Below the pieces are notes generated by a model, which was given only the letters and a program-made list of their open reading frames with translations, was not told the DNA's origin and searched no databases. Of a DNA stretch of 7,721 nucleotides, positions 1 to 5,892 are shown in pieces. This DNA comes from a virus (lineage: Duplodnaviria; Heunggongvirae; Uroviricota; Caudoviricetes). The position numbers and the translations under genes are program-made. Position 1 is the stretch's first letter. Each line of letters opens with the position of its first letter. The stretch lies in the IMG/VR virus record IMGVR_UViG_2711768000_000002; one strand, given 5' to 3'.

Positions 1-108
1 CTCCAATGACTAGTCTAAAAACTAGTATTAAGACTATCACTTATTTAAGTGATACTGGTTGTCTGGAGATTCAGGGGGCCAGTCTAGTAAGGCTGCGAGA
101 GGTGAATA

Positions 109-275
109 ATGTCGCCATCATTACGCAAGGCTGTTGCAGTTGCTATTGGTGGCGGGGCTGTTGCTATAGCATCTGTGTTAATCACTGGCCCAGGTGGTAA
201 CGATGGTCTGGAAGGTGTCAGCTACATACTATACAAAGATATCATTGGTGTATGGACTGTATGTCACGGACACAC
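109..275 (+). CDS. SAR-type phage endolysin (T4-lysozyme-like muramidase, P21 R21-like), 5' portion only; 3' end lost in the N-run
   Basis: ATG at 109 preceded by GAGAGG (97-102). Translation [55 protein letters not shown] has a Gly/Ala-rich weakly hydrophobic N-terminal segment (signal-anchor-release type) followed by the E35...D44...T50 spacing that I recall as the catalytic triad of phage P21 R21-like lysozymes. The ORF runs into N at 276. Confidence 0.85.
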
Positions 276-575
276 NNNNNNNNNNNNNNNNNNNNNNNNN
301 NNNNNNNNNNNNNNNNNNNNNNNNNNNNNNNNNNNNNNNNNNNNNNNNNNNNNNNNNNNNNNNNNNNNNNNNNNNNNNNNNNNNNNNNNNNNNNNNNNNN
401 NNNNNNNNNNNNNNNNNNNNNNNNNNNNNNNNNNNNNNNNNNNNNNNNNNNNNNNNNNNNNNNNNNNNNNNNNNNNNNNNNNNNNNNNNNNNNNNNNNNN
501 NNNNNNNNNNNNNNNNNNNNNNNNNNNNNNNNNNNNNNNNNNNNNNNNNNNNNNNNNNNNNNNNNNNNNNNNNNN
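276..575. other. Run of exactly 300 N (assembly gap or masked bases)
   Basis: Directly visible in the sequence; all ORF-track proteins containing X stretches are artefacts of this run. Confidence 0.99.
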
Positions 576-875
576 CAGCGTGATGCTGATGCACTCGATG
601 CTAAATACACGAAGGAGTTAGCTGATGCGAAAGCTGAAAATGATGCTCTTCGGCGCAAGCTTGATAATGGTGGTCGGGTGCTCGTCAAAGGAAAATGCCC
701 TGTGCCATCCTCAGCCGAAACCTCCAGCGCCTCCGGCATGGGCAATGATGCCACCGTCGAACTCTCTCCAGTTGCTGGACGAAACGTTCTCGGTATCCGG
801 GACGGAATCATCAGCGACCAGACAGCATTGAGAATGCTTCAGGAGTACATCAGGATCCAATGCCTTGGGGGGTAG
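576..875 (+). CDS. Rz: Rz-type i-spanin, C-terminal portion (5' end lies in the N-run)
   Basis: Frame-0 translation after the gap, QRDADALDAKYTKELADAKAENDALRRKL..., closely matches the lambda Rz motif (..RDVAALDAKYTKELADAKAENDALR..) as I recall it. Stop TAG at 873-875. An embedded +1 frame lipoprotein gene (Rz1) is the hallmark arrangement. Confidence 0.85.
   Translation, partial: QRDADALDAKYTKELADAKAENDALRRKLDNGGRVLVKGKCPVPSSAETSSASGMGNDATVELSPVAGRNVLGIRDGIISDQTALRMLQEYIRIQCLGG
625..831 (+). CDS. Rz1: Rz1-type o-spanin outer-membrane lipoprotein, embedded in the +1 frame of Rz
   Basis: MRKLKMMLFGASLIMVVGCSSKENALCHPQPKPPAPPAWAMMPP...: signal peptide with lipobox (VVGC), then a proline-rich segment (PKPPAPPAW) resembling lambda Rz1. 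AAGGAG at 611-616 lies 8 nt upstream of the ATG. The gene sits wholly inside Rz in another frame. Confidence 0.8.
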   Translation: MRKLKMMLFGASLIMVVGCSSKENALCHPQPKPPAPPAWAMMPPSNSLQLLDETFSVSGTESSATRQH

Positions 876-963
876 CGGTAATTTTACTCATTATCCTTCA
901 AATCAGATTCTGTTGTCAGAGGAATGGGGGAAGCTGGATTCGCAAGAGCTTTTTATGGGCAGT

Positions 964-1473
964 TTAGCTAAAAAAAGGCAACACGAAGCTAAAACTACCA
1001 ACATAAAGTGCTGACCAGCTAGCAGCTGAAATCAGACTCACTGTATACACTTTCACTGGATGAAGTTGCAACATTCCTGCCACCAAAGGAGCAATATAAC
1101 GCAGCACGGCGATAAAGCGCGAAGTGAAAAGTATTGACACAGAGTTATTTTGCAACTGAAGGCGAACCCGTTCTATTGTATTGGAACGGCTTGATATTAT
1201 ACATGCAAGTTGAGGGATATGCCCAATTATTATACCAAGATGGTAATTAACGATAGTACCGCACCATGCGCCACTCATGACCGTGATTCCAGCTTCCCAT
1301 GGTGAAAGAGTCGTCTTGCTGACTGTAATTACAGTGGCCATCATAATTGATGCTGGTGGCAATATCGCCGAAATGAGTAAAGTGGATTTTGTGAACGCTA
1401 TTATAAAAAGAAGCCCCCATAGGCGATATGGATGAAGTACAAAATAGTTCATCAAAGCATTTATCCACTCCAT
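964..1473 (-). CDS. DedA-family inner membrane protein (SNARE-associated/DedA-like), AT-rich moron on the opposite strand
   Basis: Translation contains GAWCGTIVNYHLGIIIG and FTSRFIAVLRYIAPLVAGM, resembling the conserved DedA motifs (E. coli DedA GDAVNYTIGRLFG and ARFVPIVRTFAPFVAGM as I recall), plus several hydrophobic helices. The ORF track starts at a TTG (1476); I prefer the adjacent ATG (1471-1473), which has AAGGAAAG upstream on the - strand. Sampled 60-bp blocks are ~37% GC here versus ~62% in the head genes. Confidence 0.7.
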   Translation of the reverse strand: MEWINALMNYFVLHPYRLWGLLFIIAFTKSTLLISAILPPASIMMATVITVSKTTLSPWEAGITVMSGAWCGTIVNYHLGIIIGHIPQLACIISSRSNTIERVRLQLQNNSVSILFTSRFIAVLRYIAPLVAGMLQLHPVKVYTVSLISAASWSALYVGSFSFVLPFFS

Positions 1474-1526
1474 CAATGTCTTTCCTTCTGTGAATTTTTC
1501 TTTGCTATTTAACCGTGATACGACTT

Positions 1527-1556
1527 AATTTAGGCTTAAACACCTTACATTTACAA
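1527..1556 (-). promoter_or_regulatory. Candidate sigma70-like promoter for the DedA-family gene (-35 TTGTAA, about 18-bp spacer, -10 TAAATT on the - strand)
   Basis: Hexamers read by eye from the reverse complement of 1527-1556, about 55-85 bp upstream of the ATG; no other support. Confidence 0.2.
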
Positions 1557-1670
1557 GGTACTCCTGTGGGGGGCCCTGCCACGGAGCGTCGCAGGAGTGA
1601 GTGATGAGGAAGAATTAAAGCAACCTATTGTGACAGGCAGCGATAACAGTAAATCACAGGAAGCATAATC

Positions 1671-2435
1671 ATGGCAAAACCGGACTGGGAGGCCATCGAA
1701 TCGGCATACCGGGCCGGAGTCCTTAGCCTCCGTGATATAGGCGAGAAATACGGCGTTACAGAAGGGGCTATCAGGAAGAGGGCCAAAAAGCTTGGTTGGG
1801 CACGCAGTGGCGGTACGCAGGTTTGCAAAAATGGTACGCAAAAAAGGAAAGTGCGTACCAGCAGAAAGCCTGCCATTACTGGCCTTACACAAAAAAGTAC
1901 GCAACTAAAAACAGAATCTACACCGGATACGAAACCGATACGCGGAATGCGTACCGATCCCCCGACTAACCCATTCCAACCCGGTAACCAGCAGGCATTA
2001 AAACACGGTGGTTATGCCCGTCGCCTTCTGCTCAAAGATGAGGTGATAGAGGACGCTAAAGCGTTGACGCTCGAGGACGAATTATTTCGCCTTCGTGCTA
2101 ACAACCTTGTCGCTGCAGAGAATATTGGTCGGTGGTTGGTGTCGCTGGAAGATGCTAATGGGGACCAGGAAAGGAAGATGCTGATTGAAAATATCAGCGC
2201 CGCCGAGAAAGCAATGATGCGCAATACAGTTCGTATTGAGTCCATCGTTGGCACGCTTGCGACGGTAGGAAAAATATTTGCTGATACAGCCTACCGCAAG
2301 GCCGCCACTGATAAGGTGTCTCTGGAGGCTGATCGTCTTCGCCGTGATGCAGGTATTGATGATGGCAATGGAGAGCGTGACCTCAATGACTTCTACTCTG
2401 ACATCCAAACCGACGCTGAATCCGGCTTTACGTAG
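1671..2435 (+). CDS. Phage terminase small subunit (TerS) with N-terminal HTH and an unusually long C-terminal region
   Basis: AGGAAG 6 nt upstream of ATG 1671. The N-terminus MAKPDWEAIESAYRAGVLSLRDIGEKYGVTEGAIRKRAKKLGW is an HTH-like DNA-binding segment, followed by NPFQPGNQQALKHGGY, a motif I associate with small terminase subunits. It sits immediately upstream of the large terminase. Stop TAG at 2433-2435. Confidence 0.75.
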   Translation: MAKPDWEAIESAYRAGVLSLRDIGEKYGVTEGAIRKRAKKLGWARSGGTQVCKNGTQKRKVRTSRKPAITGLTQKSTQLKTESTPDTKPIRGMRTDPPTNPFQPGNQQALKHGGYARRLLLKDEVIEDAKALTLEDELFRLRANNLVAAENIGRWLVSLEDANGDQERKMLIENISAAEKAMMRNTVRIESIVGTLATVGKIFADTAYRKAATDKVSLEADRLRRDAGIDDGNGERDLNDFYSDIQTDAESGFT

Positions 2436-3789
2436 TTTCTGGACTATGCGGGCACGTAACAAAGTGCTTTATGGTGGTCGGTCATCGTCAAAATCATGGG
2501 ATGCCGCTGGCATTGCCATATTTCTGTCGAATAAATACACCCTGCGTTTTTGTTGTGCCCGTCAGATCCAGAATAAAATCGAAGAGTCGGTGTATACCCT
2601 GCTCAAAATTCAGATAGACAGGTTTGGTCTGCGGCACCGTTTCCGTATTCTGAACAACAAAATCATTAACCGGGTTACTGGCTCGGAATTTGTTTTTTAT
2701 GGATTATGGCGCAACATCGAAGAAATTAAGTCACTGGAGGGGATCGATGTGTTGTGGCTGGAAGAAGCCCACGCACTGACGGAATACCAGTGGAAAATTC
2801 TGGAGCCAACGATCCGTAAAGAGGGTTCGGAATGCTGGTTCATATTCAACCCCGGACTTGTTACTGATTTCGTCTGGCGCAACTTCGTTGTTGATCCGCC
2901 CGAAGGCACTCTCATCCGCAAAATTAACTATGACGAAAATCCGTTTCTGTCTGACACCATGCTTAAGGTTATCGACGCGGCGCGACGCCGTGATCCGGAT
3001 GGTTTTAAACATGTGTATGAGGGCGTTCCGGAGTCTGATGATGATGCGGCAATCATCAAACTGTCTTGGATAGAAGCCGCAGTGGATGCGCACAAAACGT
3101 TAAATTTCGAACCCAGTGGAAGAAAGCGTATTGGCTTTGACGTGGCTGACAGTGGTACAGATAAGTGCGCTAACGTTTACCGTCACGGATCCGTTGTTTT
3201 CTGGGCCGACGAATGGAAGGCCAAAGAAGATGAATTACTGAAGAGCTGCCAGCGTACTTATCAGGCGGCGCTGGAGCGTGAAGCAGATATTGTTTACGAC
3301 TCTATCGGTGTTGGTGCGTCTGCCGGTGCTAAATTCTCTGAAATTAACGCTGACCGGAAGAGCGAGAACGCATACGCGCGACGTGTGAATTACCAGAGGT
3401 TTAACGCCGGTGCTGGTGTGCATGAGCCAGATGACGAGTACAACGGCATCCCCAACAAAGACTTTTTCGCAAATCTTAAGGCTCAGGCATGGTGGCTGGT
3501 GGCTGACCGTTTCAGAAATACGTTTAACGCCATTAACAACGGAGAACAGTATCCTGTGGATGAGCTGATCAGCATAGATTCTCGTTGTCCGTTGCTTGAA
3601 AAGCTGAAACTGGAACTGACAACACCTCATCGTGATTTCGACCGTAACGGACGTGTGATGGTCGAAAGTAAAAAAGACCTCGCAAAACGCGAGATACCGT
3701 CACCAAACGTTGCTGATGCATTCATTATGGCCTTCGCGCCAATCGATACATCGCTGGATATCTGGGAACAGCTGGGGAGACAGGCCTGA
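2386..3789 (+). CDS. Phage terminase large subunit (TerL; ATPase plus nuclease)
   Basis: Walker A-like LYGGRSSSKSWD near the N-terminus, Walker B-like VLWLEEAH, and an acidic C-terminal nuclease-type region. The ORF is open from 2278; start chosen at ATG 2386 (GGAGAG at 2370-2375) so the TLNPALRSFW segment is retained. ATG 2359/2362/2368 and 2446 are alternatives. Stop TGA at 3787-3789 overlaps the portal ATG (tgATG). Confidence 0.85.
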   Translation: MTSTLTSKPTLNPALRSFWTMRARNKVLYGGRSSSKSWDAAGIAIFLSNKYTLRFCCARQIQNKIEESVYTLLKIQIDRFGLRHRFRILNNKIINRVTGSEFVFYGLWRNIEEIKSLEGIDVLWLEEAHALTEYQWKILEPTIRKEGSECWFIFNPGLVTDFVWRNFVVDPPEGTLIRKINYDENPFLSDTMLKVIDAARRRDPDGFKHVYEGVPESDDDAAIIKLSWIEAAVDAHKTLNFEPSGRKRIGFDVADSGTDKCANVYRHGSVVFWADEWKAKEDELLKSCQRTYQAALEREADIVYDSIGVGASAGAKFSEINADRKSENAYARRVNYQRFNAGAGVHEPDDEYNGIPNKDFFANLKAQAWWLVADRFRNTFNAINNGEQYPVDELISIDSRCPLLEKLKLELTTPHRDFDRNGRVMVESKKDLAKREIPSPNVADAFIMAFAPIDTSLDIWEQLGRQA

Positions 3790-5255
3790 TGGCACGAAAC
3801 AAACAAGCCCTGCGGCGAACTGTGCAGGCCACAGCTGATGGTTATGAGAATTTTATTGCCCGCGTAGGGATGCAGACACCTAACCAGCACTCAGCATCCA
3901 CCTACCGGGCTAATTTCACCAGTCGTAACCGCATGCTGGTGGAATGGTCCTATCGTTCATCCTAGATCATCGGCGAAGCAGTCGATGCTATCCCGGATGA
4001 TATGACCCGCAAAGGCATTCGCATCACTTCGGAAATTGATGCAAAAGATCGTGGCATTCTCGAATCACAACTGGATGAGTTGCAAATCTGGGATGCGCTG
4101 AATGACGTGCTGAAATGGTCGCGCCTCTACGGCGGCGCGGTGGGTTTCATCATGATTGAGGGGTAGGCACCAATGACCCCGCTGCGACCCGAAACCATCG
4201 GTAAGGGCAAGTTTAAGGGGATTCTCCCGCTCGACCGCTGGATGGTCGACCCGGCACTGACCCGCCGCATTAAAGATATGGGGCCGGACCTGGGTAAACC
4301 TGAGTTTTACGATGTGGTGACCACAGCAACGGGAATTCCTGCCTGGCGCATTCATCACAGTCGCCTGATTCGCTTTGATGGCGTCACGTTGCCATTTCAG
4401 CAGAAGATGACCGAGAACGAATGGGGAATGTCGGTTGTAGAGCGTATCTGGGATCGTCTTACCGCGTTCGACAGCGCTACTGTCGGCGCGGCGCAGCTGG
4501 TCTACAAGGCGCATTTGCGTACCTACAGCGTGGAGAAGCTACGCGAGCTTATCGCACTTGGTGGTCCTGCGTATGAAGCGTTGCTGAAGAATATCGACCT
4601 GATTCGACAGTTCCAGAGTAATGAAGGCATGACGCTCATGGACTCGCGGGATAAGTTTGAAACCCATCAGTACAGCTTCAGTGGTCTGGATGACATCCTT
4701 TCGCAGTTTGTAGAACAGATTAGTGGCGCTGTTGGTATCCCACTGGTGCGGTTGTTCGGACAGTCCCCGAAAGGATTTTCTACCGGTGATGCAGACCTTG
4801 CCAACTATTACGATCGCATCAGTTCGTTGCAGGAGAGGCGTTTACGTCTTCCGGTGCGGCGGATACTGGACATCATGCATCGTTCGGAACTTGGCAAGCC
4901 GCTGCCGGACGATTTCACGTTTGAGTTTAACCCGCTCTGGCAAATGTCTGATGTCGATCGCTCAACGGTGGCGTTAAACACCACCAACGCAATCAGTACG
5001 GCGCTGGGTGATGGTCTGATGACACTGAAAGCCGCTATGACTGATTTGCGAGAAAATTCTGACGTAACCGGCATCGGGGCATCCATTACCGACGAGGACA
5101 TCGAGAATGCCGAAGATGAAGCGCCGCCCGGCATCGGCGAACCTGATGACGAACCGCAGGAGCCGTCAGGCGGAAATCCGGTATCGAACCAGCCTACGCA
5201 GGATAGCGAGGGCGGTCGGAGACATCGTAAATGGTCGCTACGATGGTTCAAATGA
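3789..5255 (+). pseudogene. Phage portal protein gene interrupted by two in-frame TAG (amber) codons at 3963-3965 and 4164-4166; otherwise a continuous 489-codon frame
   Basis: ATG 3789 with GGGGAGA 8 nt upstream. Frame 0 translates MARNKQALRRTVQATADGYENFIARVGMQTPNQHSASTYRANFTSRNRMLVEWSYRSS*IIGEAVDAIPDDMTRKGIRITSEIDAKDRGILESQLDELQIWDALNDVLKWSRLYGGAVGFIMIEG*APMTPLRPETIGKGK... and continues as the 360-aa ORF 4173-5255. All three segments are in one frame and look coding. Its position between TerL and a MuF-like gene is the canonical portal position. Confidence 0.75.
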
Positions 5256-5889
5256 CAGTATCACGGAAATTATTGCGGCGCTGGAGCGTTACAGTGAAAT
5301 CATCACCCCCTGGGCGACAAAGGTCGCGGAAAACTTTACTGCGGACCTAACCCGGCAGAACGAGAAAGTTTGGCGGCAACACAGCAAGAACATCAGTCGC
5401 GAGCTCCGCAATCTTGTGGAAAGCGCTCCTGTGGGCCAGGTGATGCAATCCATCATCGCCGAACAGGTCAAGTACATCAAATCTCTGCCTCTCGAGGCCG
5501 CAGACAGGGTGTACGACATCCAGAACAAAGCGATAGAGGCTGTTGTCACCGGTGGTCGGGCGGAGCAGTTTGCTAAAGAGATTGCATCTACCGGCGATGT
5601 TGCTAAGTCTAGGGCCGATCTGATTGCCCGAACGGAACTGGGAAGAGCAACGGGCGCGCTGGATATGGCCCGAGCGATAGCTATTGGCTCGGATGGTTAT
5701 ATTTGGCGTACAGCCGATGATGGCGATGTCCGAGATTCCCACGATCACATGAAAGGTAAATTCGTCCGCTGGGATTCACCTCCAACTTTGGACGGCATGA
5801 CCGGCCACGCGGGCGAGCTGCCAAACTGCCGCTGCTATAAAGAGATCGTGTTTGTTCGCGTTCCATTCGCAATGAAAAGGGCAGCATAA
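5107..5889 (+). CDS. Phage head morphogenesis protein, Mu gpF / SPP1 gp7 family (minor head protein)
   Basis: C-terminal region ...WRTADDGDVRDSHDHMKGKFVRWDSPPTLDGMTGHAGELPNCRCY matches the conserved Mu F-like domain signature (His pair and CRC) as I know it, and the gene follows the portal as in SPP1-like head modules. GAGGA lies 8 nt upstream of ATG 5107; ATG 5116 and 5146 are alternative starts. The 5' end overlaps the portal 3' end in another frame. Confidence 0.8.
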   Translation: MPKMKRRPASANLMTNRRSRQAEIRYRTSLRRIARAVGDIVNGRYDGSNDSITEIIAALERYSEIITPWATKVAENFTADLTRQNEKVWRQHSKNISRELRNLVESAPVGQVMQSIIAEQVKYIKSLPLEAADRVYDIQNKAIEAVVTGGRAEQFAKEIASTGDVAKSRADLIARTELGRATGALDMARAIAIGSDGYIWRTADDGDVRDSHDHMKGKFVRWDSPPTLDGMTGHAGELPNCRCYKEIVFVRVPFAMKRAA

Positions 5890-5892
5890 CCC

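What the first reader, a model, noticed from the sequence alone, without database searches (positions are those of the whole stretch)
5107..5255. Out-of-frame overlap of at least 110 nt between the portal 3' end and the MuF-like gene 5' end
The MuF-like frame has no ATG, GTG or TTG between the portal stop (5253-5255) and deep inside the gene; the only starts are ATG 5107, 5116 and 5146, all within the portal coding region in a different frame. The portal C-terminus here is an acidic, probably disordered tail that ends in an odd basic stretch (RRHRKWSLRWFK). This is either a genuine long overlap, which is unusual, or the trace of an ancestral frameshift near the portal end.
Basis: seen in the sequence. 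Interest (0 to 1): 0.35.

Follow-up and report, generated by a model that had tools for sequence, protein, structure and literature searches.

The report
Conserved portal–MuF gene overlap
The last 149 bases of a phage portal gene also encode, in another reading frame, the start of the next head-assembly gene; this double use is real and is the normal arrangement in this phage family, not a defect of this copy.

Summary
The MuF-like frame is open from 5068. Its only canonical starts before GTG 5416 are ATG 5107, 5116 and 5146, all inside the portal ORF, which stops at 5253-5255, and in its +1 frame.

The overlap is genuine and ancient, not a frameshift scar. There is no difference from an intact 99.9% relative anywhere between 4712 and 7099. 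MuF homology to distant phages begins at residue 19 (nt 5161), 95 nt inside the portal. Of 123 non-redundant related junctions, 116 have MuF in the +1 frame and 112 have the conserved MuF core overlapping the portal.

Both frames show selection:
- The MuF start (ATG 5107, GAGGA 8 nt upstream) is kept while the portal residue there varies among N, D, H, Y and S.
- The portal's terminal Trp in ...LRWF is invariant while the MuF residue there varies among D, P, A and H.
- The most variable codon phase switches from portal to MuF at about 5140-5170.
- Stop codons are avoided in the portal frame.

The most likely overlap is therefore 149 nt. RefSeq annotates 110 nt, and several phage records truncate MuF.

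In this window the module is a fossil: the portal carries two in-frame TAG codons and IS1 truncates the prophage. This is an ordinary arrangement for the family and a clean example of dual coding.

The parts
3789..5255 (+). Portal gene (PF06381 / DUF1073 family, 488 codons). In this window it is a pseudogene, with in-frame TAG at 3963-3965 (TGG in relatives) and 4164-4166 (CAG in relatives).
5085..5120 (+). Portal motif ITDEDIENAEDE, the last motif conserved across the family. Its purine-rich codons carry the MuF ribosome-binding site.
5094..5098 (+). GAGGA Shine-Dalgarno-like sequence, 8 nt upstream of ATG 5107. The GAG codon is kept in 66 of 86 non-redundant long-overlap loci.
5107..5109 (+). 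Best-supported MuF start codon. In 70 of 86 non-redundant long-overlap loci the portal codon here is AAT, GAT, CAT or TAT (giving ATG) or AGT (giving GTG), and never NAC in those 70.
5107..5889 (+). MuF-like head morphogenesis / minor capsid gene (260 codons, PF04233 at aa 137-243), in the +1 frame relative to the portal.
5107..5160 (+). Basic 18-residue MuF leader (MPKMKRRPASANLMTNRR). The same bases encode the acidic portal linker (NAEDEAPPGIGEPDDEPQE). The internal ATGs 5116 and 5146 are not conserved.
5161..5252 (+). Part of the conserved MuF core (SRQAEIRYRTSLRRIARAVGDIVNGRYDGSN) that lies inside the portal ORF. Variation here has MuF-frame periodicity.
5229..5255 (+). Conserved portal C-terminal motif KWSLRWFK plus the TGA stop. 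W 5244-5246 is invariant in 90 of 90 non-redundant long-overlap loci.
5107..5255 (+). The dual-coding overlap itself: 149 nt (110 nt if ATG 5146 is used, as RefSeq PGAP annotates).

Best explanation
This is a genuine, evolutionarily conserved same-strand overlap of two head-module genes of a SEN34-like (Brunovirus-like) prophage. On the late mRNA, ribosomes translating the portal read through 5107-5252 in frame 0. This produces an acidic linker followed by a conserved Trp-rich basic C-terminus (...RKWSLRWFK). Other ribosomes initiate independently at ATG 5107 in the +1 frame, using the GAGGA at 5094-5098 that lies within the portal's conserved ITDEDIENAEDE motif. They make the MuF-like protein, whose basic 18-residue leader and first 31 conserved core residues are encoded by the same 149 nt. 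Shown here: homology of both products across the overlap, conservation of the start codon and of the portal terminus against variation in the other frame, the switch of codon phase, and stop avoidance. Inferred: that initiation actually occurs at 5107; that the overlap keeps MuF translation low relative to the portal (SPP1 gp7 is present at 1-2 copies per capsid); and that it locks a cognate portal/MuF pair together against recombination. In this particular window the arrangement is an inherited relic, because the portal has two amber codons and the prophage is cut by insertion sequences.
For: 1.
2. The window is identical to the intact relative NZ_CP065613 over 4712-7099, so there is no local indel.
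3. tblastn and alignment show that MuF homology to Klebsiella phage ST405-OXA48phi1.2 (51%), Acinetobacter Ab105-1phi (45%), Bordetella IFTN9 (41%) and Klebsiella KpV52 (24%) begins at window residue 19-20, i.e. nt 5161. In KpV52 muf is not next to a portal and starts MSRQTELNY.
4. Among 123 non-redundant junctions, 116 have MuF in the +1 frame and 112 have the MuF core overlapping the portal. The best-supported starts give overlaps of 139-170 nt in 87 loci and 50-99 nt in 20. The median leader is 18 codons.
5. At the start site the portal codon is AAT 51, GAT 14, CAT 2, TAT 1 or AGT 2. The portal residue varies while ATG/GTG is kept.
6. The portal Trp is invariant in 90 of 90 loci. It is built from MuF GAT|GG in Enterobacterales and from CCT, GCT or CAT|GG in 63-67% GC hosts, so the MuF residue varies while the T is kept.
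7. The most variable codon phase is portal position 3 up to about 5140, mixed over 5125-5170, and MuF position 3 from about 5155. Wobble variation is depressed in the overlap (Fisher p = 3e-5 for MuF position 3 and 1.5e-7 for portal position 3).
8. Synonymous resampling of MuF codons leaves the portal frame open for 49-52 codons in only about 1-7% of trials in most enterobacterial lineages; the simulated median is mostly 10-22 codons.
9. RefSeq PGAP already annotates a 110-nt overlap in the E. coli relatives fetched; the module is present in 382 E. coli genomes.
Against: No direct evidence of translation initiation at 5107 is available here (no ribosome profiling or N-terminal proteomics). ATG 5116 (chosen by some gene callers, giving 257-aa database entries) and ATG 5146 (PGAP) cannot be excluded as used starts in the E. 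coli subclade. The leader region 5107-5160 shows no clear MuF-frame periodicity. The resampling test has no power in high-GC hosts (p 0.25-0.66), and the lineages are not phylogenetically independent. Seven of the 123 junctions have an overlap of 4 nt or less, or none, so the overlap is not obligatory. The AlphaFold model of MuF was of low confidence in the N-terminal half.
Confidence: 0.85

Rival explanations
1. The overlap is real but shorter: MuF initiates at ATG 5146 (110 nt, as PGAP annotates) or ATG 5116 (140 nt).
For: PGAP annotates the 5146 equivalent in L001 and L002. Database entries of 257 aa correspond to 5116 and entries of 244-248 aa to 5146 or a nearby TTG. MuF proteins of KpV52 and IFTN9 as annotated start within 1-2 residues of the conserved core, which is closer to 5146.
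Against: ATG 5116 and 5146 are missing in SEN34, and Klebsiella ST405-OXA48phi1.2 has no start codon at all between the 5107 equivalent and the core. Neither has a Shine-Dalgarno sequence at proper spacing. The 5107-equivalent ATG/GTG is kept across changes of the portal amino acid. An 18-codon basic leader is also present in lineages with an ATGA-type junction.
Confidence: 0.12
2. Only the MuF frame is functional in 5161-5252. The portal's last 30 or so residues would be tolerated read-through with no function of their own.
For: Variation in 5161-5252 has MuF-frame periodicity. YDGS in MuF is retained in Yersinia phage YP3, where the portal ends earlier. Portal tails end earlier in the Acinetobacter and Pseudomonas clades.
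Against: The portal Trp is invariant in 90 of 90 loci and is maintained by T-ending MuF codons, including the rare CCT in 64-67% GC hosts, while the MuF residue changes. Stop avoidance in the portal frame has p about 0.01-0.07 in most enterobacterial lineages. MuF wobble variation is halved in the overlap. A hydrophobic/basic C-terminus also occurs in non-overlapping relatives (L088 ...LIRRLFRRR, L075 ...FFKRLLR).
Confidence: 0.1
3. A programmed +1 ribosomal frameshift joins the portal to MuF as a fusion protein, so no internal start is needed.
For: MuF lies in the +1 frame in 116 of 123 junctions, so a +1 shift anywhere in 5068-5252 would fuse the two products.
Against: A start codon with a Shine-Dalgarno sequence is conserved under selection. 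The sequence around the portal stop is not conserved between clades (WFK*, WFKR*, WFTGKR*, WRSRRSADD*). There is no portal-MuF fusion among the top 120 MuF homologues. No RNA structure signal was found. Some lineages place MuF in the other frame with an ATGA junction.
Confidence: 0.03
4. A recent frameshift, sequencing error or indel in this locus extended the portal or displaced the MuF start.
For: The locus is decaying: two amber codons in the portal and IS1 at 7639.
Against: There are no differences from the intact relative in 4712-7099. The same overlap length (149-152 nt) is present in the E. coli, Salmonella SEN34, Hafnia yong1 and Klebsiella phage records fetched, and related loci occur in 382 E. 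coli genomes.
Confidence: 0.01

Closest known systems
SPP1 gp6 (portal) / gp7 (MuF-family) pair, and the general 'muf immediately downstream of portal' rule (Jamet et al. 2017, PMC5576092)
   Same: The gene order portal then MuF within the packaging/head module is the same. The MuF domain PF04233 is present. From the paper: gp7 binds the portal and is present at 1-2 copies per capsid.
   Different: The paper does not describe a long out-of-frame overlap of the two genes. Here the MuF leader and 31 core residues are encoded inside the portal ORF. The portal is of the PF06381/DUF1073 type (nearest solved structure: Pam3 portal 8hds, E 2e-37), not the SPP1 type.
Salmonella phage SEN34 (Brunovirus) and related E. 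coli, Hafnia and Klebsiella myovirus-type prophages
   Same: The head module is the same (TerL, DUF1073 portal, MuF, DUF2213, cement protein), at 82-99.9% nucleotide identity. The 149-152 nt overlap is identical in position.
   Different: This window's copy is defective: two amber codons and IS truncation. The SEN34, yong1, 689R2, ST405-OXA48phi1.2 and Ab105-1phi records annotate the MuF start downstream of the portal stop, which removes about 34-81 conserved residues; the IFTN9 record starts at a GTG 4 nt past the stop, which removes the conserved leader.
Rz/Rz1-type embedded genes of lambdoid phages (established knowledge)
   Same: Two proteins are read from the same strand in different frames, both are functional, and the pair is conserved across phages. 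An Rz1-like ORF embedded in +1 also sits in this window at 625-831.
   Different: Rz1 lies entirely inside Rz. Here only the 3' end of one gene and the 5' end of the next overlap.
holD/rimI overlap in Enterobacteria (Palleja et al. 2008, PMC2478687)
   Same: A conserved co-directional overlap with both protein termini conserved.
   Different: [quoted passage not shown] That survey judged all 715 co-directional overlaps of more than 60 bp in 338 prokaryotic genomes to be misannotations. This overlap is 149 nt, lies in a prophage, and passes the orthologue-length criterion for both genes.

Membership tests
Phage portal protein, PF06381 (Phage_portal_3 / DUF1073) | Match to the family profile above the gathering score | tested here: met
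   274.5 bits against a cut-off of 33.8 for 4173-5252. The fragment 4002-4163 also matches (40 bits).
Phage portal protein, PF06381 (Phage_portal_3 / DUF1073) | Intact open reading frame of orthologue length (488 aa) | tested here: not met
   There are two in-frame TAG codons, at 3963-3965 and 4164-4166, where relatives have TGG and CAG. In this window the portal is a pseudogene.
Phage Mu F-like head morphogenesis / minor capsid protein, PF04233 | Match to the family profile above the gathering score, and position directly downstream of a portal gene | tested here: met
   68 bits against a cut-off of 29.6. Gene order is shown. The context rule is taken from PMC5576092.
Genuine dual-coding same-strand gene overlap | Both protein termini encoded in the overlap are conserved in orthologues, with no length anomaly | tested here: met
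   The MuF N-terminal core aligns from residue 19 down to homologues at 24% identity. The portal terminus ...LRWF is conserved in 90 of 90 loci.
Genuine dual-coding same-strand gene overlap | Selection visible in each frame at the expense of the other | tested here: met
   The start codon is kept while the portal residue varies. The Trp codon is kept while the MuF residue varies. The codon phase switches and wobble variation is depressed. Stops are avoided in the portal frame.
Genuine dual-coding same-strand gene overlap | Both products shown to be translated from the overlap | not testable with these tools
   This needs ribosome profiling or proteomics of an intact relative.
Programmed ribosomal frameshift fusion | A conserved slippery or shift site, with no independent start for the downstream frame | tested here: not met
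   The stop context differs between clades. An ATG with GAGGA is conserved. No fusion proteins were found and there is no structure signal.
Frameshift or indel artefact at the portal 3' end | An indel or substitution relative to intact relatives within 5100-5255 | tested here: not met
   There are zero differences from NZ_CP065613 in 4712-7099. The alignment with four relatives has no gaps in the overlap.

The most novel reading that the evidence does not exclude
The overlap may be more than compact packing. The portal's acidic linker with its Trp-rich basic C-terminal peg, and MuF's basic leader with its first helix, are encoded by the same bases. The opposite charges follow from the frame relationship: GAN codons in frame 0 read as ANN or RNN in frame +1. 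These two segments could be the physical contact between portal and MuF. The overlap would then act as a genetic lock that forces the two interacting surfaces to co-evolve and to be inherited together in mosaic phage genomes.
Probability: 0.1. Interest if true: 0.55.

Novelty: new member of a known kind. Interest (0 to 1): 0.3.

Why it matters
Practical value:
- It fixes the MuF start for a widespread prophage head module. The module is present in 382 of 5,426 complete E. coli genomes and in many other Proteobacteria.
- Several deposited phage annotations cut conserved N-terminal sequence from MuF to avoid an overlap, by up to about 80 residues.

Conceptual value:
- It is a well-supported counter-example to the rule of thumb that co-directional overlaps of more than 60 nt are annotation errors.
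- It gives reciprocal signatures of selection in both frames, which makes it a useful test case for methods that detect dual coding.

It does not reveal a new kind of system.

Tried and rejected
- RNA folding of 5060-5180 and 5000-5300 gave z-scores of +0.56 and -0.21. There is no sign of a structure that hides or exposes the MuF start.
- A PDB sequence search with MuF, as a single sequence and as a profile, found only a designed helical bundle, which is spurious.
- AlphaFold2 of MuF with a 30-sequence alignment gave mean pLDDT 52. Only the C-terminal MuF domain (about residues 190-250) was confident, so the model says nothing reliable about the leader or first helix. I did not run a fold search on it.
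- I looked for natural portal-MuF fusions among the top 120 of 808 MuF homologues and found none. One 388-aa entry with PF09950 plus PF04233 from a 2-kb contig was not pursued.
- The similarity 'PTxDS' between overlapping and non-overlapping portal tails was considered as possible homology. I rejected it as chance or convergence in low-complexity tails, because the DNA segments cannot be homologous in both arrangements.
- The codon-resampling test is uninformative in high-GC hosts.
- The literature searches found no description of this overlap.

Full report
**Observation**

The finding is accurate at the stated coordinates. The portal frame (positions = 0 mod 3) ends ...QDSEGGRRHRKWSLRWFK with TGA at 5253-5255. 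The MuF frame (= 1 mod 3, i.e. +1) is open from 5068. It contains ATG at 5107, 5116 and 5146, and then no ATG, GTG or TTG until GTG 5416, which is MuF residue 104.

Pfam places 4173-5252 in PF06381 (Phage_portal_3, E 1.3e-81). The domain ends near nt 4995, so the last 86 or so residues are a tail. 5107-5886 falls in PF04233 (Phage_Mu_F, E 1.5e-18, residues 137-243).

**Context**

The window is the lysis-plus-head part of a SEN34-like (Brunovirus-like) prophage. Its contents are:
- lysis genes, with an N-masked stretch at 276-575;
- a DedA gene on the minus strand;
- a small-terminase-like ORF, and TerL;
- the portal, 3789-5255;
- MuF, 5107-5889;
- a DUF2213 protein, 5893-7113;
- a cement protein, 7117-7623.

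The closest complete relative is E. coli FDAARGOS_944 (NZ_CP065613), which is collinear with window 87-275 and 576-7638 at 99.5-99.8% identity; 276-575 is masked. It differs at only a dozen positions. Two of them turn portal codons into TAG: 3964 G>A (TGG to TAG) and 4164 C>T (CAG to TAG). None of L001, L002, L011, L012 or L091 shares these changes.

Homology ends at 7638, where an IS1 end begins. The first 86 nt are also unrelated to the prophage. The copy in this window is therefore a decaying remnant. Between 4712 and 7099, however, it is base-for-base identical to the intact relative, so nothing local has created the overlap.

**Where MuF homology begins**

A tblastn search of the 260-aa ORF against 50,697 phage genomes found 480 records. 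In distant relatives the alignment begins at query residue 19-20. These are Klebsiella ST405-OXA48phi1.2 (51%), Acinetobacter Ab105-1phi (45%), Bordetella IFTN9 (41%) and Klebsiella KpV52-like phages (about 24%).

In KpV52 the muf gene is not next to a portal gene. It starts MSRQTELNYYRQLKQVAR, which aligns with window SRQAEIRYRTSLRRIARAV. Residue 19 is nt 5161, so 95 nt of conserved MuF coding sequence lie inside the portal ORF. A start after the portal stop is therefore impossible for a full-length protein. In this window none is available anyway.

**How general the overlap is**

I fetched 170 related loci from annotated phage and E. coli records, one-genome-per-species GTDB contigs, and IMG/VR. 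In each I located the portal stop, the MuF frame and the position of the MuF core. Among 123 non-redundant junctions:
- 116 have MuF in the +1 frame;
- 112 have the conserved core itself overlapping the portal;
- 90 have a core overlap of 85 nt or more.

Taking the start codon that leaves a leader of 8-30 codons (median 18), the overlap is 139-170 nt in 87 loci and 50-99 nt in 20. The first group is made up of Enterobacterales and the Cupriavidus/Ralstonia group. The second is made up of Acinetobacter and Pseudomonas. In seven loci it is 4 nt or less, or the genes do not overlap. Of those seven, L066, L075, L077, L087 and L088 have ATGA-like junctions, four of them with MuF in the other frame; in L065 and L157 the genes are separated by a gap.

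The overlap is thus the normal state of this portal/MuF module. The few non-overlapping lineages still carry a basic leader of about 18 residues ahead of the core.

**Which start codon**

ATG 5116 and ATG 5146 are not conserved. SEN34 has lost both. Klebsiella ST405-OXA48phi1.2 has no start codon between the 5107 equivalent and the core.

ATG 5107 arises from the portal codons AAT|G (Asn-Ala) within the family-wide portal motif ITDEDIENAEDE. In 70 of 86 non-redundant long-overlap loci the portal codon at this site is AAT (51), GAT (14), CAT (2), TAT (1) or AGT (2). It is never the synonymous NAC in those 70. The portal residue therefore drifts among N, D, H, Y and S, while an in-frame ATG (or GTG) for MuF is kept.

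The preceding GAC GAG GAC supplies GAGGA 8 nt upstream (5094-5098), and the GAG codon is used in 66 of 86 loci. The Photorhabdus group instead uses an ATG 9 nt further upstream, also inside the motif. Burkholderiales start further into the tail.

I therefore take 5107 as the start, giving 149 nt of overlap, with about 0.75 confidence in that sub-claim. PGAP's choice of 5146 (110 nt) and the 257-aa database entries that use 5116 remain possible for the E. coli subclade.

**Selection on both frames**

Four lines of evidence bear on this.

1. Codon phase. I used 51 non-redundant sequences with at least 64% MuF identity.
   - Upstream of the overlap, variation sits on portal position 3. The mean minor-allele fraction is 0.277, against 0.054 and 0.026 for the other two positions.
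   - Downstream, it sits on MuF position 3 (0.308, against 0.093 and 0.044).
   - In 30-nt windows the dominant phase is portal position 3 up to about 5140. All three phases vary in 5125-5170, and MuF position 3 dominates from about 5155.
2. Depressed wobble variation. It is reduced in the overlap for both frames:
   - MuF position 3 is variable at 21 of 30 sites, against 131 of 135 outside the overlap (p = 3e-5).
   - Portal position 3 is variable at 31 of 49 sites, against 127 of 133 (p = 1.5e-7).
   - It is already reduced in 5065-5140 around the ribosome-binding site.
3. The portal terminus. In Enterobacterales the portal ends [W/F/G]xLRWF(K/KR/TGKR), and in the Cupriavidus group QWLSAWRSR.... 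The second Trp is invariant in 90 of 90 non-redundant loci.
   - It is spelled by the last base of one MuF codon plus GG of the next.
   - In Enterobacterales these are GAT(Asp)|GGT.
   - In hosts of 63-67% GC they are CCT(Pro), GCT(Ala) or CAT(His)|GGC.
   - The MuF residue changes, and a rare T-ending codon is used, so that the portal Trp survives.
   - This is the mirror image of the start-codon result, and it shows that the 'odd basic stretch' is a selected portal feature.
4. Stop avoidance. I resampled synonymous MuF codons using each gene's own codon usage. The portal frame stayed open for the observed 49-52 codons in only about 1-7% of trials in most enterobacterial lineages, with simulated medians mostly 10-22 codons. 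The test has no power in high-GC hosts, and the lineages are related, so I treat it as supporting evidence rather than proof.

**Mechanism**

Shown:
- two conserved proteins share 149 nt in frames 0 and +1;
- a conserved start codon and Shine-Dalgarno sequence lie inside the portal ORF;
- both frames are constrained.

Inferred:
- MuF is made by independent internal initiation on the late polycistronic mRNA, while portal-translating ribosomes run through the site.
- This may hold MuF synthesis below that of the portal. From Jamet et al. 2017 (PMC5576092), SPP1 gp7 binds the portal and is present at 1-2 copies per capsid.
- The shared DNA makes it hard to separate a cognate portal/MuF pair by recombination.

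There is no RNA-structure signal (z = +0.56 and -0.21).

The acidic portal linker and the basic MuF leader are two readings of the same purine-rich bases (GAA GAT GAA GCG / A AGA TGA AGC G). This invites the speculation that the two segments contact each other, but nothing here tests it.

**Rivals**

- A recent frameshift or indel is excluded by the identity to intact relatives and by the breadth of conservation.
- A programmed +1 frameshift fusion is unsupported. The start is conserved, there is no conserved shift site or stop context, there are no fusion proteins among the top 120 homologues, and some lineages use the other frame.
- 'Only MuF matters and the portal tail is tolerated read-through' is contradicted by the invariant Trp, the stop avoidance and the depressed wobble variation. 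It keeps some weight, because the Acinetobacter and Pseudomonas portals end earlier and because Yersinia phage YP3 lacks the tail.

**Comparison with what is known**

muf genes lie directly downstream of portal genes as a rule (PMC5576092). No paper found here describes this overlap.

Palleja et al. 2008 (PMC2478687) judged all 715 co-directional overlaps of more than 60 bp in 338 prokaryotic genomes to be misannotations. They named holD/rimI (32-56 bp) as the longest real one. By their criterion, orthologue length, this prophage overlap is real for both genes.

In dsDNA viruses overlaps of more than 50 nt are common in annotations: 61% of genomes have at least one (Schlub and Holmes 2020, PMC7017920). 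The phenomenon is therefore of a known kind.

Annotation is inconsistent. PGAP gives 110 nt. Database entries have 257, 244-248, 202-205 or 176 aa. The SEN34, yong1, 689R2, ST405-OXA48phi1.2, Ab105-1phi and IFTN9 records place the start after the portal stop, which removes conserved residues.

**Verdict**

The overlap is genuine, most likely 149 nt, conserved and dual-coding. It is the ordinary arrangement of this family, and in this window it sits in a defective prophage. Interest is modest: it is a clean, well-supported example with practical annotation consequences, but not a new kind of system.

Noticed in passing
window 3963-3965 and 4164-4166: Two in-frame amber (TAG) codons interrupt the portal gene. 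Relatives have TGG and CAG at these sites. Both are G:C to A:T transitions, and they were absent from all five closest loci checked, so the portal here is a pseudogene.
   Followed up: yes
window 7639-7721 and 1-86: Homology to the intact prophage stops at 7638, where an IS1 end begins; the IS1 family transposase annotation lies under thousands of E. coli matches. The first 86 nt are also foreign to the prophage and look like an IS end (IS2-like from memory, not verified). The prophage is a remnant bounded by insertion sequences.
   Followed up: partly
window 276-575: A run of 300 N lies across the lysozyme (RrrD-like) gene and into the start of the downstream lysis (Rz-like) gene. It is a mask, not real sequence.
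   Followed up: no
window 625-831 within 405-875: An Rz1-like ORF is embedded in the +1 frame of the Rz-like lysis gene. It begins MRKLKMMLFGASLIMVVGCSS, a lipoprotein-type signal. This is a second out-of-frame overlap in the same window, of the classical lambdoid kind.
   Followed up: no
window 2386-2435: In the relative's RefSeq annotation the small-terminase-like ORF (window 1671-2435) and TerL (annotated start equivalent to 2386) overlap by 50 nt. I did not examine this overlap.
   Followed up: no
window 5845-5889, compared with L003 and L005: The MuF C-terminus differs between this E. coli lineage (...EIVFVRVPFAMKRAA) and the SEN34 and yong1 lineage (...EIVFPNPHSYLA). This suggests an indel or replacement at the 3' end of muf.
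   Followed up: no
L003 (SEN34), L004 (689R2), L005 (yong1), L006 (ST405-OXA48phi1.2), L008 (Ab105-1phi), L009 (IFTN9): The deposited phage annotations start MuF downstream of the portal stop, cutting conserved N-terminal sequence (about 34-81 residues in five records). In IFTN9 the annotated GTG start removes a leader motif (TLDKRHRRNPV) that is conserved in Burkholderiales and Pseudomonas prophages.
   Followed up: partly
L007 (Yersinia phage YP3) and L019 (Apirhabdus apintestini): These are exceptions to the rule. In YP3 the portal ends at ...GDPVSK* and is followed at once, in the same frame, by a MuF that lacks the leader and the first part of the core (MLAIANQIG...). In L019 the MuF frame is broken. 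Both look like secondary deletions or frameshifts.
   Followed up: no
PDB hits of the portal: The nearest solved portals are much longer than their portal-homologous part: Pam3, 8hds, 621 aa; and a 'gp19 Portal', 9b41, 765 aa. The nature of the extra C-terminal regions was not examined. A MuF profile did not match them.
   Followed up: partly
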